Source: Octopus vulgaris (taxonomy: Eukaryota). From it: a DNA stretch of 64,000 bases. The position numbers were made by a program, and so were the translations under genes. Below are positions 2,171 through 60,430 of the stretch, one piece after another. Location of the stretch: assembly GCA_951406725.2 (NCBI GenBank), contig OX597831.1, forward strand, positions 5,208,001 to 5,272,000. The letters run 5' to 3'. Position 1 is the first letter of the stretch. Every line of letters starts with the position of its first letter. The notes under the pieces are model-generated. The model was not told where the DNA came from and did not search any database. It worked only from the letters and a program-made list of their open reading frames with translations.

Positions 2171-2330
2171 AAGGCGGCGAGCTGGTAGAATCATTAAGGT
2201 GCTGGATGAAATGCTCAGCGGTATTTCGCCTGTCGCTATGTTCTGAGTTCAAATTCCGCCGAGGTCAATTTTTGCCTTTCATCCTTTCATCCAAGTACTG
2301 GGGTCGATGTAATCGACCAACCCCCATCCC
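2171..2330 (+). mobile_element. SINE family D (tRNA-like head, Nin/Deu-like central block), truncated by a LINE
   Basis: GGCGGCGAGCTGG...GAGTTCAAATTCCGCCGAGGTC...GCCTTTCATCCTTT; many copies. Confidence 0.8.
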
Positions 2331-3415
2331 TCAGACGGTGAACAGGTGTGGTCGTCTTTTGTCAGACGCGATTTTCCGCAGCTCGTCTCTTTGACGGAGC
2401 TGCAGACCTGGATCAAACGTAGACCGAGAAAGGGCGCTTGGCACCTCGAGTGCCGTCAAGCCCTCTCCGCCCTCCGTCAGGCGGGCAATGCGATCGGTTA
2501 CAGCTCCACTCTAGCGTTCTATAGAGGGTTAGTGGAGGAAAAATGCGACGACGTTCTTGGGGAAACTCTAGGCGTTGAAGATGACGAACTGTGCGGTCTG
2601 TTCGGGAGGACTTTCGGGCCGTGGCCGATGGATAATTTCCAGAGGTCTCTCGCCTGGCAGTGCTACCGAGGGGCTCTGCCTGTTCGAGATAAACTCTACC
2701 GGCACGGAAGTGCCGTCAGCCGGGCCTGCCCGAGGTGTTGCCAGGACGACGAAACCGTTCTGCACGCACTCGTTCAGTGCCCGAGTATTGCTGAAATATG
2801 GGTTTATGTCGAACAGCTACTGTCACGTGTAGGACGGATCCGACTATCGGCCGAATCCATTGTGAAGATTGCCCCACCGACCTCCTTTAACAAGGAGGGC
2901 GAGGCCGTTTTCTTGTGCCTAGTGGCTGTGGCGAAAGAGGTGGTGTGGTGGACTCGTTTGAAAGGGCTAAAGTCAGACACTTTCCTCTTTGGTCAAGGCC
3001 TCATCAACTTTTTCAAGTTTCACTTGAAAAGGAAGATGAGGTTAGAGAGGAAAGTGCTGTCCGATAGCAAGTTTTATGAAGGGTGGGTTAATTGTGCGAG
3101 ACTGGCCAGTATAAATGGACCAGTTCTCAGGTTTCGCCTGTAATTTCAAAAGGGTAATGTAAAAGGAGAAAAAAGGGGACTCTCTACACCCCTTTTTGAC
3201 CAGGCTCCCGTTGGCTTTTGTAGGGTTTTTCCACCAGGAACCTTTCGAAACGTCTCCCCCTTTTGGGAGTTTTTCATTGTTGAATTTTTTAAATTGTTAT
3301 AAAGATTTTTACTCGATGTTTTTCATAAACGGCAAAACCCTTTGTAACCTTTCGTCCTGTTTTGTCCCTTTATGTAATCATGCGTGTCAGCCCTTGTGGC
3401 CAATAAAAAAGAATT
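2331..3415 (+). mobile_element. 5'-truncated Tx1/L1-clade LINE: ORF2 C-terminus (zf-RVT) open to stop at 3143, plus 3' UTR
   Basis: LAWQCYRGALPVRDKL...CPRCCQDDETVLHALVQCP zinc knuckle; homologous to 40270-41060; ends AATAAAAAAG before (ATT)n. Confidence 0.9.
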
Positions 3416-4003: not shown

Positions 4004-4600
4004 CACAGACTTGACAGAAGTAAATAGAAACACCATAAAACATTGCTTTATGTTCATTCTAACTTGTAAAGTTTTGTATTTTTTTATCAATTGACATTTT
4101 TATGTTTCACGTTCTAAATGTGACTGTTTAATCATGCCACATACAAAAGGAGCCTTGGAATTGTCTGAATTTCGAAGAAGCCATATTGTGGGTCAATCTG
4201 AAGGTGGACTTAAGTCAACGTAAAATCGCAGCAAACCTTGGGATCCAGCTTTCTACAGTTAATAGAGTGATTGTGCAATGCACCACAGAAGGGAAAGAGT
4301 CCACGTCATCTCGCCCAGATCAACCAGGGCCCTCTTACAGGACCCTTCTCTTTGTTAAGAGAAGTGTGGAAGATAATCGCCGTCACATATCTGGCATAGG
4401 CCCAGAACAGCTGTCAGGTGTCTTCACAAACTTGTCTACTATGGCAGAGCAGCGAGAAAGAAGACACTTCTTCGACCAACCAACATCAAGCGGAGAAAAT
4501 ATTGTATCAGTGAAATGGTGGAGAGGCCACAAACATTTTGGGACACTCTCTTATTCTCTGATGAGTTCAGATTTGCTCTATTTCCTGACAACTGGACCCC
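4004..4600 (+). mobile_element. Tc1-family DNA transposon remnant (left end plus decayed transposase)
   Basis: TA|CAC start; from ATG 4134 ELSEFRRSHIVG..GLSQRKIAANLGIQLSTVNRVI (HTH); shifted frame gives RAARKKTLL and FWDTLLFSDEFRF (first catalytic D). Confidence 0.85.
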
Positions 4601-5061
4601 CTGCCCCAAAAATGTCAAGCCTTGTGTCTAGACTAGAAAAGGAGTACATGAGATTCTGTATTCAAATCCACTAAAATTGTTGTTTCGACTCACTCGGTAC
4701 CTGTACTTTTATAGTTGAGATGCTGTGCAAGCCATTGCAGGTACAAGCCATTGCATATATTCAGTTAACTTTTTAAACGAGCACCTCGTTCTTTCTCCAC
4801 GTAATCTGATTTAGCCCAATAACAATATATATCTAGGTGGGTGTTGTATTCTAGCAATTTTCTTGTTCCAGTCATTAGACAGCAACCATGCAGGGACACA
4901 GTCACCAGGAATTTTAGTCGAATAAATCTGCCCTAGTGCTTATTTTTCTTGAGCCAGGTAACTTTCCTACCTGTTACTTTTGCTACCTTACAGGGACATA
5001 AACACTAACAACGGTTGTCAAACACAGACACAGTGACACACACACGCACACACGCACATGC

Positions 5062-5194
<133 letters not shown>

Positions 5195-5344
5195 ACCGAA
5201 TGACCGATAGAATAAGTACTACGCTTACAAAGAATAAGTCCTGAGGTCGATTTGTTCGACTAAAGACGTTGCTCCTGCATGGCCGCACTCAAATGGCTGA
5301 AACAAGTAACAAATTAAAAAATTAAAGAATAAAAGAATATTATA

Positions 5345-5460
5345 TATATATATAACGAGAAGCTATATAAAATAGACAAAAGACGAAGGCAGGTGGGAAA
5401 CAAACAAACGATTGTATTAGTATGGCGCTCAGGAAATATAAATAAAACAAGTCTTTAACG
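5345..5460 (-). mobile_element. 3' part of H1-related repeat (same as 24640-24850), broken within the HHR stem III/cleavage region
   Basis: Minus strand CGTTAAAGACTTGTTTTATT...CCTGAGCGCCATACTAATACAAT matches 24745-24850. Confidence 0.7.
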
Positions 5461-5486
5461 TGTATATATATATATACACACACACA

Positions 5487-5538
<52 letters not shown>

Positions 5539-5802
5539 CCGCGCCGCCTGTCCCGAATCGCGCGGCGAGACGTAGCAGAGCCCGACAGCGGCAGCAGCAG
5601 CAGAAGAGTAACGGTGAGGTCGCACGCGCGCAGATGACGACGAACGAACGAACGAAACGCACAGACGCCCACCCGCTCTGTTCGTGTCCGCCGCTCGATC
5701 CCTCATCTCGTACGCATCCTCGCCCTTCCATCCCCGAAGACCGCCCGCCGCCCTCGCAATCGTCGCTTCCTATCCGTGGCCGCCGTCGGTCGGCGTTCGC
5801 TC

Positions 5803-7924: not shown

Positions 7925-8530
<606 letters not shown>

Positions 8531-10811: not shown

Positions 10812-11768
10812 GATCTTAGGTCCTCCTGTGCCGCGTGGCGCAGTGGGCGTCAAGTCTTCTCCAGCGTGATCGGTCGGCGCGGCGATTTTAGCTTCGTCAA
10901 CAGCTTTGAGATCATCGATGAAGGTGCGGCACCAAGTCGCTTTTGTTGGCCCTTGTTTTCCCTTGCCAAGCGGCACTCAATGACAATGTCATCAAGTGGA
11001 CGGATATCAGTTCAGTGATGTATTTCGTTGTTGGCGATGTGGTCCTCGTATGATATTAGCAGGAATCGCCGGAGGCACCGTAGCTGAAATACATTGAGCC
11101 TTCTTCGCACGACCTTTGCCGATGTCTTCAACGTTTCTGCTGCGTTTATTGCCGATGGTATGACGATGCTGTTGAAGAGTTGCTCTTTGGTCATGGTGGA
11201 GATCGCTCTGCCTGCCCAGATGCGTTTGAGTCTTTGAAAGACAGCCGAGGTCTTCCCAATCCGGCAGACAACGTCGCGTTCGGCGTCTTCGTCGTTAGCC
11301 ACGACTCTGTCCAAATAGGTGAACTCATCAACTTCCTCGATTTGGTGTTGTCCTATCATCAAGGGGACGCCATTGTTGTTCCCATCGACATATCCAGTCC
11401 TCATGATCTTCGTCTTGTTTTCACTCATGCAGTATCCGATCTTGGCCGCCTCCCGTTCCGATTTCTCTGTCATTGTGCGATATCATCCGAGGAATGCGAT
11501 ATCATCGGTGAAGTCGAGGTCAGTCAGGCTCCCCGACCCACACCACGGAATCGCAAATGAGCGTTGAACGCATCGCCCCAAGCATGACGAAGTTGATCGC
11601 CATAAGAAATAGAAGAGAGGATAGAATGCACCCTTGCGGCACACCAGTCTCAATGGCAAAGTAGTCGGTGTAGCTCGTCTCCGTTCGAACACAGCGCCTT
11701 GACTCGCGGTAAAGGCTCCGAAAGGTGTCGACGAAACGTTCGGGAATGCCGAACTCACGAGCGATGCA
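10812..11768 (-). mobile_element. RTE-clade LINE, 5'-truncated RT and C-terminus (pseudogene)
   Basis: FGIPERFV..FAIETGVPQGCILS, DLDFTDDIAFL (YADD equivalent), IEEVDEFTYL, RIGKTSAVFQRL, GKGKQGPTKATW. Confidence 0.9.
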
Positions 11769-15047: not shown

Positions 15048-15542
15048 ATCCTCCGTCTTGCCAGAAAAAAGGCCTTTTCGTTTGTTTTCTTGTTTATTTT
15101 ATTGTGCAGTTTTATTGTTACGTCCTGTTTGTGTTACATCTTTTTCTTGCTTGTTTTACCCCTCTGCGAGGTAATTTTATTTTAATTCTCTCGCAGGAAG
15201 GCCTAGTTTTGACGAGTCGTGTCCTGTCTTGCCTTCGAAACACGCTTGAGTCTAACTAGCGACAGCTGATGATTGGGGATCTTTCCTTGTGTAGTATGTC
15301 CTGTACTTTGTTTTTCTGTTGTAGAAAAATGTTTTTCCCGTTTTCGTTTCTCGTCTAGTTCCACGTCTCTGTTTTTCTGTTGTAAAAAAATGGCTTTTCC
15401 GTTTTCGTTTCTCGTTGAGTTCTACGTCTAGTTGTGGTGTCCTGTACTCACGTATATATATTTATATATGCATATATATATATACATGTAGATGTAGGTA
15501 CGTACATATATGTTTGTATGTATGCATATATTTTATTTATTA

Positions 15543-25450: not shown

Positions 25451-25878
25451 TAATTTTCTTAAGTAGTTATTTACAGCATTCTTTCGTGCACCTACGCACA
25501 TTTCACCTGCATCAACTGAACGCTGTTAGGCGCGTTTAGGTCTTACTGTCGATGCATTTTCTACAGACCATTATTTACTGCCATTCGAAGTTAAGCTGAA
25601 GAAATCAGGAAACCGAAAGAATAGTTTCATTTAGGTGTTGGTATTACTATAAATAGCTGTATCATTCCTGTATATGATGGATCTTCTGTCGGTTTCGACG
25701 TATGGGGATCCGACAACCTAATCTTTCTTTGTCAGTCATAATGCTTATGTCGAATCTGGCATTTAAGTCCCGCCAACGATTTGCAAGAAGATCACAGATG
25801 TTGCAATTATGAAGATTACTGGTCAGTGCAGGTAGTATATTTTCAGCCGCTTTACTCTTTTGCCTTGAACCCCAACTT

Positions 25879-25927
25879 TGGAATGGATGCGTGGCGTTCA
25901 ATAAAATAATAATAATAAATAATATAC

Positions 25928-25995
<68 letters not shown>

Positions 25996-26150
25996 GAATG
26001 GATGCGTGGCCTTCAATAAAATAATAATATAAATAATATACTATATATATATATATATATATATATACATACATACATACATAAACTTGGGAATGGATAC
26101 GTGGTCTTCAATAAAACAATAATATAAATAATATATATATATATATATAT
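25879..26150. repeat. Three tandem copies of GGAATGGAT.CGTGG..TTCAATAAAA followed by (TA)n
   Basis: Units start near 25880, 25995 and 26089. Confidence 0.85.
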
Positions 26151-26151
26151 A

Positions 26152-26427
26152 TGGGTTCGGACGTCACCAAGTGTAAACAACAAAGTGAACACAAATAAGT
26201 TAAATACGCAAACAACGAGAGAAGCAAATGGAAAACAGGAAAAGTAACACAAAGAATGACCCTTCATCAGTTGTCGGCTGCCTATCTACTCCTCATTTCG
26301 AGCATTCAACGACAATGAAGAGTAGATAGAGAGCCAACAACTGACGAAGGGTCGTTCTTTGTGATACTTGTCCTGTTTTCCATTTTAACTCGTACCTCAT
26401 GTTGTTTACAGTTGGTGACGTTCTGTA

Positions 26428-26432
<5 letters not shown>
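26152..26432. mobile_element. Fold-back dimer of an H2-related repeat with permuted HHR strands at 26254-26315 (-)
   Basis: Arms about 26152-26297 and 26314-26432 are reverse complements; CTGATGAAGGG on minus, CTGACGAAGGG on plus. Confidence 0.8.
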
Positions 26433-26462
<30 letters not shown>

Positions 26463-26465
<3 letters not shown>

Positions 26466-49132: not shown

Positions 49133-49959
49133 CATATATATACACACATAATACAAAATGGGACAAGAACGCAAAACATCCGGACAACTAGGTGATACAA
49201 AAAGGGACAACAAAACATCCAGATAGACGATACGAAAAAAAAACAAGGACGGGTCATTCGAAGCTTTCTATCCTCAGTCAAGAACCGGATCATCCTCGCA
49301 ATTTCGGCTGAAAGAGAAAGAAAAGAGGGTTATATAGAAAAGAGGGTTATATAGAAAAGAGGGTTATATATGTTAATAGATAGACAGACAGACATCGATG
49401 GATGGATGGATATGAAATGTTTTGGGCTCAGAACTTATCAGTGACAAACATTACATGCATAAATCTTGGCCGTTTCGTTAAAGGTGAATAGTACAGAAAC
49501 AGTTGAAGTCAGTTATTCCCTCTTGACTCTCTCACATGCTAACTTCGCGTATATATATTGTTCCGCCAGTGTGTCTATAAAATTCTCCATTTTCAATAAC
49601 TAAGACACTGGAGGGAAATTAACTCACAATTTCGTCTAAGTTTTATTCCCCTCGGCCGAAGCGAAAGCTTATATATAAATATATATGTATATATGTATGT
49701 ATGTATATGTATGTATATGTATGTATATGTATGTATATGTATGTATGTATATATATATGTATGTATATGTATGTATGTATATGTATGTATGTATATGTAT
49801 GTATGTATGTATATATATGTATATATATGTATGTATATATATATGTATATATATATATGTATGTGTATATATATATATATATGTATGTATATATATATAT
49901 GTATGTATGTATATATATGTATGTATGTATATATATGTATGTATGTATATGTATGTATG

Positions 49960-51334: not shown

Positions 51335-51501
51335 GTATATTTAAGAGATGAGGAATTATGTACATTATTTTCATTTGACGGATATTTGTCCTCATCTTGT
51401 TTGTTGTTAACACAACATTTCGGCTGATATACCCTTCAGCCTTCATCAGGTGTCTTGGGGAAATTTCGAACCTGGGTTCTCATTCCTAAGGTATTTTTCG
51501 A

Positions 51502-51545
<44 letters not shown>

Positions 51546-51770
51546 TCACTGCCTGGAATCGAACTCGGAATCTTCGGGTTAGTAGCCCGCGCTCTTAACC
51601 ACTACCCCATACGCCCAATAATAATAATATCGAAAAATACCTTTGGAATGAGAACCCAGGTTCGAAATTTCCTCAAGACACCTGACGATAGCTGCAAATC
51701 ATCCGAAACGTTGTGTTAACTACAAACAAGATGAGGACAAATATCCGTCAAATGTAAATAATGTAAATAT
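51335..51770. mobile_element. Fold-back dimer of a tRNA-headed hammerhead element (family H3)
   Basis: tRNA-like head 51542-51616 (-), (AAT)n spacer, HHR 51409-51454 (-); inverted arm 51617-51770 with HHR 51677-51717 (+). Confidence 0.85.
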
Positions 51771-59794: not shown

Positions 59795-60430
59795 TCTATA
59801 TTTAAGAGATGAGGAATTATGTACATTATTTACATTTGACATTATTTACATTTGATGGATATCTGTCCTCATCTTGTTTGTTGTTAACACAACGTTTCGG
59901 CTGATATACTCTCCAGCCTTCTTCAGATGTCTTGGAGAAATTTCGAACCTGGGTTCTCATTCCTAAGTTATCTTTCGATATTATTATTATTATTATCATT
60001 CATGTAACTGCCTGGAATCGAACTCGGAATCTTGGGGTTAGTAGCCCGCACTTTTAACCACTACGCCATATTTTTATTTTATTTATGCGCCCTTTTCAAG
60101 CCTAGCCAGACTCATGGGCCCGGTTACCCGGTTACCCGGTTTCTATAGCATATGTGTTTCCCCAGTTGGACGAGACGCCAGTCCATCGCAGCGTTACTCA
60201 AGAAACAGGAAGAGTGAAAGTTGGGGTGAAAGAGTACAACAGGGGTCGCCACCACCCCCTACGGAGCATCGTGGAACTTTAGGTGTTTTCGCTCAATAAA
60301 CATACACAACACCCGGTGTGGGAATCGAAACCGCGATCCTCCCACCGCGAGTCCGCTGCCCTAACCACTGGGCCATTGCGCCTCCACACTACGCCATATG
60401 CCGGTGGGCATATGGCATAGTGGTAACGAC
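59795..60430 (-). mobile_element. Second copy of tRNA-headed HHR element H3 (HHR 59886-59931), head interrupted by a SINE
   Basis: GACAT-CTGAAGA-A-GGCTGgagagtatatCAGCC-GAAA-CG-TT-GTGTT; head-to-head junction CCATATGCC-ggtg-GGCATATGG at 60394-60415. Confidence 0.85.
60072..60386 (-). mobile_element. SINE with family A head and family B-like tail
   Basis: 13-bp TSD CACTACGCCATAT (60059-60071 / 60387-60399). Confidence 0.85.

What the first reader, a model, noticed from the sequence alone, without database searches (positions are those of the whole stretch)
26152..26432. Fold-back insertion whose junction sits at the predicted cleavage site of a permuted hammerhead
Seen on minus from 26315: TTGTCG-tt-GAATGCTC-GAAA-TGAGG...CGACAA-CTGATGA-A-GGGTCATTC. 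Stem I is TTGTCG/CGACAA and stem II is about 8 bp (GAATGCTC/GGG(T)CATTC), joined by a 2-nt linker, again in C-B-A order. The unit starts at TTGTCG, the first base after the scissile bond. The NUH and stem III strand are absent and replaced by an inverted copy of the same element, joined through a 2-nt AA overlap. Inference: a self-cleaved RNA was reverse transcribed to its 5' end and then template-switched, which would be genomic evidence that the permuted ribozyme cleaves in vivo.
Basis: partly seen in the sequence, partly recalled or inferred. Interest (0 to 1): 0.8.

Follow-up and report, generated by a model that had tools for sequence, protein, structure and literature searches.

The report
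Mirror insertion at predicted ribozyme cut
This is a mirror-image insertion of an abundant jumping repeat whose intact copies carry a hammerhead motif, predicted to be a self-cutting RNA, wired in an unusual order; the joint overlaps the predicted cut, but most copies seen run straight through that point, so this copy hints at cutting in cells without proving it.

Summary
The fold-back is real: two tail-out arms (26154-26316 minus, 26314-26429 plus) of a high-copy repeat sit between (TA)n runs. Two corrections: the junction microhomology is 3 nt (26314-26316), so the scissile bond is one of four possible breakpoints; and stem II most likely pairs with an upstream strand, as in a sister family here and in published Naiad 3' ends, so the fold is a split relative of type-SGC hammerheads rather than SGC itself. 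The second prediction was not met where I could look: loose ends at the bond (36) barely exceed the neighbouring base (31), and a cDNA ending at the cut would fold back through stem I, not here. Best reading: a two-ended Penelope-type insertion joined at microhomology; chance overlap about 50%, cleavage-defined end about 40%. Cutting is untested. This scan noted the same ribozyme layout, and similar junctions, before on other DNA of this genome and others; I found neither in the papers searched.

The parts
26154..26316 (-). Long arm: 3' part of the repeat unit, starting at H17 or within the first two bases of stem I (four possible breakpoints), ending at the (TA)n run
26310..26315 (-). Stem I 5' strand (TTGTCG); 26315 is position 1.1, first base after the predicted scissile bond
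26316..26316 (-). A that equals H17 of intact copies and is also the third base of the short arm
26300..26304 (-). Stem II 3' strand (TGCTC); its likely partner GAGCA lies upstream in intact copies and is missing here
   Evidence: loose-end majority, read by eye; layout
26296..26299 (-). GAAA core (G12 A13 A14 A15.1)
26292..26295 (-). Stem III 3' strand (TGAG); partner CTCA present in intact copies, missing here
26278..26283 (-). 3' strand of an outer helix beyond stem III (AGGCAG here, AGACAG in the majority); partner CTGTCT upstream in intact copies
   Evidence: tables 3 and 7, by eye
26271..26276 (-). Stem I 3' strand (CGACAA)
26264..26270 (-). CUGAUGA core
26314..26429 (+). Short arm: inverted copy starting inside GAAA (19 nt 3' of the cut), with two internal deletions, ending at the (TA)n run
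26314..26316 (.). 3-nt junction microhomology shared by both arms
26131..26153 (.). Left (TA)n target run
26430..26465 (.). Right (TA)n target run
32782..33260 (+). Sister family, intact copy with the same ribozyme layout (predicted cut before 32984); further copies about 33582-34047 (cut before 33784) and 15075-15450 (cut before 15224). Comparison only

Best explanation
The locus is a two-armed, tail-out insertion of a non-coding high-copy repeat into a (TA)n run, likely made when a Penelope-type enzyme copied the RNA from both nicked DNA strands and the two cDNA ends were joined through a 3-nt overlap that likely covers the predicted ribozyme cut by chance. Shown: the two arms, the flanks, the overlap, and that intact family copies hold every strand of a hammerhead core in the order cleavage-site block, GAAA block, CUGAUGA. 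Inferred: that this core folds as a split, pseudoknotted hammerhead (stem II closed by an upstream strand), that it cuts after AUA, that a Penelope-type (perhaps Naiad) protein mobilises the repeat, and that both cDNAs were primed on the target. In this reading the template was an uncut RNA and the long arm stopped, or was trimmed, at the first usable microhomology.
For: Most family contigs pass through the site with intact upstream sequence (209, 210, 186, 202 contigs stopping at 26316 only because the window copy ends there). No step in loose ends at the bond: 36 at 26315 against 31 at 26314 in X5, similar agreement (0.58, 0.55), both with family upstream as majority. Four breakpoints fit; the chance that one of two arms covers the bond is 2-8% for assumed unit lengths of 370-130 nt, and the locus was picked after the fact from a genome rich in such insertions (11 other close inverted pairs in this window, several of them merely neighbouring repeat copies). 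0 of 3 sister copies start at their cut; two other hammerhead-bearing two-armed insertions in the window join away from their cut (by eye). One joint listed in 3 of 4 runs (26277 to 26341) reads as another fold-back joined about 36-39 nt 3' of the cut. Inverted 5'-truncated neighbours and (TA)n targets are described for Naiads and other PLEs (PMC8557442); a purified PLE protein cleaves and extends both strands and mainly uses uncut RNA, and no RNA-seq reads ended at its hammerhead site (PMC11167929).
Against: The overlap does include the bond, which is a 2-8% event a priori. A second rearranged locus (26317 to 26282, runs X1 and X5) also starts within 1 nt of the bond. Agreement of loose ends at 26314-26315 (0.55-0.63) is lower than at 26316 (0.70-0.77) and both counts are far above the roughly 2.6 contigs per unlisted place (my subtraction), which leaves room for a 4-5-fold excess of true 5' ends near the cut. 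No autonomous partner was found, and the 30-40-nt one-sided PLE tail is absent.
Confidence: 0.5

Rival explanations
1. Same two-ended insertion, but the long arm ends where it does because its RNA template had been cut by the ribozyme: reverse transcriptase ran off the new 5' end and the terminal AA annealed to the end of the second cDNA.
For: The bond lies inside the 3-nt overlap; the intact family has a complete predicted core with AUA; the product follows from one event with no further change; a second junction lies within 1 nt of the bond (table 5c); end-to-end joining of two cDNAs avoids the stem I objection.
Against: No visible pile-up; both junctions retain the H17 base, which a cut RNA would lack (explained by the other arm in the window copy, unexplained in the 5c locus); posterior is only 33-50% for a 3-5-fold enrichment; cleavage untested.
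Confidence: 0.36
2. The two cDNAs joined through the natural stem III complementarity (5 nt, just 5' of the cut) and two bases were lost later by slippage in the ATAT run, giving the same sequence.
For: Stem III offers a longer overlap than 3 nt. One other locus seen in two runs (records 1 and 9, 569-570 nt) matches the window to 26318, as a 2-nt loss at this place in an otherwise ordinary copy would.
Against: Needs two events; such a gap was seen in 1 of the 8 pieces listed per run, against about 200 contigs without it; the rest of that contig could not be read.
Confidence: 0.07
3. One reading: one cDNA reached the cut end, folded back on itself and primed copying of itself.
For: Both arms end at the same 3' point and share minority variants (26250 and two positions in the tail); a bulged 5-bp hairpin can be drawn at the observed site.
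Against: For a cDNA ending at 26315 the 3' base pairs with the stem I copy at 0.72 and with the observed site at 0.02; hairpin energies -2.3 against +0.2 kcal/mol. The stem I product is not what is seen.
Confidence: 0.04
4. The palindrome is itself the mobile unit (MITE-like) or an assembly artefact.
For: Long inverted arms in a TA target.
Against: 186-210 contigs per run carry a non-palindromic upstream; arms differ by 13% plus gaps and flanks differ.
Confidence: 0.03

Closest known systems
Type-SGC non-circularly permuted hammerheads (HRIMA-1 and variants; Eckert et al. 2023, PMC10085705; read parts 3-5 of 8 and passages, supplements not seen)
   Same: Order of cleavage-site block, GAAA block and CUGANGA; short link from stem I to stem II; pseudoknotted; all core nucleotides present in intact copies.
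   Different: Their block C keeps the stem II 5' strand directly behind CUGANGA; here the better partner lies 5' of the whole motif, so the chain is broken between A9 and G10.1. They were found in metatranscriptomes, none in genomes of known organisms apart from one type-GCS candidate; this is a high-copy animal genomic repeat. Theirs were shown to cleave; this one is untested.
Naiad Penelope-like elements (Craig et al. 2021, PMC8557442; passages, supplement searches and supplement part 24 of 59 read)
   Same: Adjacent inverted 5'-truncated copy, (TA)n target; the 3' ends of Naiad_Obim and Naiad_Ovul show, by eye, the same split layout with different, fully compensated stems, although the paper reports no canonical hammerhead.
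   Different: No ORF and no sequence match of this family to the published consensus set (11 exact motifs tried, no relevant hit); no one-sided 30-40-nt tail in this copy.
Poseidon PAc of Anolis (Frangieh et al. 2024, PMC11167929; parts 1-2 of 4 read)
   Same: Both DNA strands cut and extended, AT-rich targets, predicted dimer: a route to two-armed insertions.
   Different: Type I minimal hammerhead overlapping the ORF start; cleavage was dispensable for insertion in vitro.
Metazoan non-LTR retrozymes (Cervera and de la Pena 2020, PMC7229834, passages; Li et al. 2026, bioRxiv 10.64898/2026.07.22.740005, part 1 of 5 and passages)
   Same: Short non-coding hammerhead-bearing repeats that likely borrow PLE proteins.
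   Different: They carry type I hammerheads in head-to-tail monomers; this family has a permuted split fold and this copy is inverted, not tandem.

Membership tests
Type-SGC hammerhead | Block order: cleavage site, GAAA, CUGANGA | tested here: met
   G and C blocks in the window; S block in the majority loose end of 4 of 4 runs
Type-SGC hammerhead | Invariant core nucleotides, A15.1-U16.1 pair, H17 not G, G10.1-C11.1 | tested here: met
   Met in the family majority (AUA triplet); not met in this copy, which lacks U16.1 and all 5' strands
Type-SGC hammerhead | Stem II 5' strand directly behind CUGANGA (unbroken block C) | tested here: inconclusive
   This family allows 4 ungapped pairs with wobbles or 8 with a bulge downstream, against 5 Watson-Crick pairs upstream; sister copies give 4 with wobbles against 5-6 Watson-Crick upstream; Naiad_Obim gives 2 against 6 (by eye). 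Not met in the relatives, so not filed as SGC
Type-SGC hammerhead | Helix joining the outer sides of stems I and II | tested here: inconclusive
   Only 30 upstream letters visible for this family; sister copies fold an outer helix and a hairpin instead
Type-SGC hammerhead | Site-specific self-cleavage | not testable with these tools
   needs a bench assay
Naiad / EN+ Penelope-like element | ORF with GIY-YIG endonuclease and RT | tested here: not met
   No ORF of 150 aa or more overlaps the locus; no link of the family to an ORF could be read
Naiad / EN+ Penelope-like element | Adjacent inverted 5'-truncated copy | tested here: met
Naiad / EN+ Penelope-like element | (TA)n target | tested here: met
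Naiad / EN+ Penelope-like element | 30-40-nt tail at one end (optional) | tested here: not met
   both arms end within about 1-2 nt of the same point
Naiad / EN+ Penelope-like element | Sequence kinship of the 3' end with a known Naiad | tested here: inconclusive
   exact-motif searches only, no relevant hit; same layout by eye
Non-LTR retrozyme | Type I hammerhead in tandem monomers | tested here: not met
   permuted order, inverted arms; no Rfam hammerhead match among 21 hits at E up to 10
MITE | Palindrome is the repeated unit | tested here: not met
   majority of family contigs have a non-palindromic upstream

The most novel reading that the evidence does not exclude
This junction is a fossil of self-cleavage in the germ line by a split, non-circularly permuted hammerhead, the ribozyme that Naiad-type retroelements were reported to lack; cut RNAs serve as templates for two-ended insertion, so inversion joints across the genome can be used to map the cut sites of ribozymes that motif searches miss.
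Probability: 0.36. Interest if true: 0.75.

Novelty: new variant of a known kind. Interest (0 to 1): 0.5.

Why it matters
Non-circularly permuted hammerheads were known from environmental RNA and DNA, and Naiads were described as lacking canonical hammerheads. A permuted, apparently split hammerhead in thousands of contigs of an animal repeat, with three sequence-distinct families sharing compensated stems, would extend the structural range of the best-studied ribozyme and reopen the question of what hammerheads do for Penelope-like elements. The missing strand predicted from one broken copy was found, which is a clean test of the parse. The fold-back itself is an ordinary by-product; it would matter only if a genome-wide count showed joints enriched at the bond, because that would show cut RNA being used as template, contrary to the in vitro result for PAc.

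Tried and rejected
No whole genome is held, so copies could not be collected; this leaves the pile-up test open. Rfam: only U6 at gathering level in the window; 21 sub-threshold hits at the locus, none a hammerhead, top ones generic hairpins. Metagenome scan with an 18-nt core motif: 29 loci, all chance matches with no flanking similarity. Look-ups of earlier findings by place-relatives and by sequence: nothing. Second lay on the long arm alone listed only 6 loose-end rows per run (184 not shown) and no strand-switch joints, although one search suggests other fold-backs exist, so its 'none' is not evidence. The 9 'opposite strands' rows of the 15 joints shown were set aside, mostly as arm switches caused by the palindromic reference. 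Summed depth was not used as a copy number. RNAfold cannot draw pseudoknots; z-scores of the sister copies (-2.3, -1.6) and of the truncated arm (0.0) say little about the core. Exact motifs of this family were not found in the Naiad/Chlamys/Hydra supplement (line breaks can hide matches). MITE and assembly artefact rejected.

Full report
Setting. The window is animal DNA rich in microsatellites and short repeats, with a U6 gene as the only Rfam match at gathering level. It looks like an octopus genome; that label is recalled from a repeat sequence and from earlier notes of this scan, not tested. No whole genome is held.

The observation. The region 26154-26429 is an imperfect palindrome between two (TA)n runs: a long arm of 163 nt on minus and a short arm of 116 nt on plus, both ending at the same 3' point of a repeat unit. 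The arms match at 100 of 115 aligned columns, with two 13-nt gaps and smaller ones. A scan for the order cleavage-site block, GAAA, CUGANGA found 3 complete motifs in the window (cuts before 15224, 32984, 33784) against a mean of 0.07 in 30 shuffles, and this locus as the one truncated motif.

The family. Contigs of four public runs were laid on the locus at 80% likeness: 4,418-5,565 were laid per run, so the element is a high-copy repeat. In each run 186-210 contigs match the long arm through 26316 and then continue with one majority sequence. On the sense strand it places CTCA, T and A directly before TTGTCG. Because H17 is A and the short arm begins AAT, the junction overlap is 3 nt (26314-26316), and four breakpoints give the same sequence; the scissile bond is one of them. 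At the 8 mismatches of the inner 72 nt, the long arm carries the non-majority base at 3 and the short arm at 5 (my reading of table 3, which showed 40 of 42 rows); both share a minority base at 26250. The arms therefore come from the same subfamily and have aged about as much as other copies; one or two template molecules cannot be told apart.

The fold. Stem I (TTGTCG/CGACAA) and stem III (CTCA-U/A-TGAG) are clear. The 30 upstream letters visible contain GAGCA, a perfect partner for the TGCTC before GAAA, followed by CTGTCT, which pairs with the AGACAG in front of stem I's 3' strand. The three sister copies have the same layout with other letters: GAAGG(C)/(G)CCTTC, 5-6 Watson-Crick pairs upstream (shuffle p 0.0004, 0.023, 0.037; the last two copies are near-identical) against 4 pairs with wobbles downstream, then CTAGT/ACTAG. 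The published 3' ends of Naiad_Obim and Naiad_Ovul show, by eye, GACACC/GGTGTC, CGGAT/ATCCG, stem III ATGG/CCAT, UH = UA and stem I CTGCCC/GGGCAG, and only 2 pairs for a downstream partner. The upstream stem II thus changes on both sides at three positions across three families and keeps G10.1-C11.1. In the sister copies the purines behind CUGAUGA pair with an upstream C run next to a hairpin that ends just before the stem II strand, which could hold A9 beside G10.1 without a covalent link. Between stem III and the outer helix, a 3-nt bulge with tandem GA pairs resembles a kink-turn in the sister and Naiad sequences and less cleanly in this family (by eye). I had noticed the upstream pairing in the sister copies, but adopted the split reading and the Naiad lead after seeing earlier notes of this scan and then checked them as described. 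In this family alone the downstream partner remains drawable (4 ungapped pairs, or 8 with a bulge), so the point is inferred from relatives. The window copy lacks all 5' strands and is not expected to cut.

Does the junction record a cut? For: the bond lies in the overlap, a 2-8% event for one insertion; a second rearranged locus, seen in X1 and X5, starts within 1 nt of the bond (26317 to 26282); agreement of loose ends at 26314-26315 is lower than at 26316, leaving room for some true 5' ends. Against: most contigs pass through the site; in X5, 36 stop at 26315 and 31 at 26314, unlisted places have at most 20, and both groups still show family upstream as majority, as base changes and slips in the AA run would give; in X1, 38 stop at 26315 and 26314 was not among the 6 rows shown. 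Subtracting the listed rows leaves about 245 partial contigs per run over about 92 places; even if a third of the 26315 group were true ends, enrichment would be about 4-5-fold, which gives a posterior of at most about 50%, and it may be nil. These tables were cut (6 rows per run), and contig counts are not copy counts. Of the 15 joints shown (4 not shown), 6 are same-strand skips; one (26277 to 26341, 3 of 4 runs) reads as another fold-back joined 36-39 nt 3' of the cut, and none of the 6 marks the bond. In the window, 0 of 3 sister copies start at their cut (they start about 150-200 nt upstream), and two other hammerhead-bearing two-armed insertions join elsewhere (by eye). In both junctions near the bond the H17 base is present, which a cut template would not supply. 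For the strict self-priming version, a cDNA ending at the bond is predicted to pair through stem I (0.72) rather than at the observed site (0.02).

Mechanism. Craig et al. describe inverted 5'-truncated copies next to Naiad and other PLE insertions and a (TA)n preference. Frangieh et al. show a PLE protein cutting and extending both strands, with uncut RNA as the main template and no RNA-seq ends at the hammerhead site. The simplest account is priming from both sides of a cut (TA)n target and joining of the two cDNA ends at a 3-nt overlap. Shown: arms, flanks, overlap, family upstream. Inferred: fold, cleavage, mobilising enzyme, two-ended priming. I put chance overlap at 0.50, a cleavage-defined end at 0.36 (plus 0.04 for strict snap-back), a stem III joint with later 2-nt loss at 0.07, other at 0.03.

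Comparison and novelty. It works like a type-SGC hammerhead in block order, but the unbroken block C of that type is not met in the relatives and is doubtful here, so I do not file it as SGC. Eckert et al. report no SGC ribozyme from genomes of known organisms; Craig et al. report no canonical hammerhead in Naiads but note partial cores. Eight literature searches gave no paper on a permuted or split hammerhead in animal retroelements or on inversion joints at hammerhead cuts; the library lacks most subscription papers, and the supplements of Eckert et al. and of the 2026 preprint were not seen. This scan has noted the same layout many times, in this genome and others, and similar junctions with mixed verdicts; those notes are unchecked and are not counted as support.

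Verdict. The ribozyme parse passed a real test and is a new variant of a known kind; the fold-back is a known by-product; the claim that this junction proves cleavage in vivo is possible but unproven.

Noticed in passing
window 15075-15450, 32782-33260, 33582-34047 (+): Three copies of a sister repeat with an intact split permuted hammerhead (triplets GUC and GUU); the two at 33 kb form a partial tandem with about 320 nt between them. Best local candidates for a cleavage assay.
   Followed up: partly
window 51357-51769, and 59850-60100 (-): Two-armed insertion of a different family with a tRNA-like head, an (AAT)n stretch and a minimal type I hammerhead; the joint is at the head, not at the cut.
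   Followed up: partly
window 7957-8477: Type I-like hammerhead element (core at 8396, +) with an inverted partial copy on the other side of an (ATAG)n run.
   Followed up: partly
records 1 (X1) and 9 (X5), 569-570 nt: One other locus matches the window to 26318, two bases beyond the family match; it may be an otherwise intact copy with a 2-nt gap at the predicted cut.
   Followed up: no
loose ends at 26258, 26280, 26304: Subfamilies with different stem I, II or III strands; the one leaving at 26280 has another stem III strand but keeps the GA-NTA-GA motif behind it.
   Followed up: no
window 49240-49310 (-): A further GAAA-before-CTGAGGA fragment without a cleavage-site block, preceded by a 17-nt tandem repeat and ending in (TA)n.
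   Followed up: no
window 25877-26153: Three tandem units of about 50 nt, each followed by a (TA)n run, directly left of the insertion.
   Followed up: no
window 36894-37001 (-): Full-length U6 snRNA match (101 bits) that lacks the terminal T run; gene or retrocopy.
   Followed up: no
window 2313-3143 (+) and 11012-11482 (-): Open stretches that look like fragments of non-LTR retrotransposon proteins (recalled likeness, not searched).
   Followed up: no
PMC8557442 supplement, Naiad_Obim and Naiad_Ovul 3' ends: Both carry the complete split hammerhead layout although the paper lists no canonical hammerhead for Naiads (Naiad_Ovul is marked half-core).
   Followed up: partly
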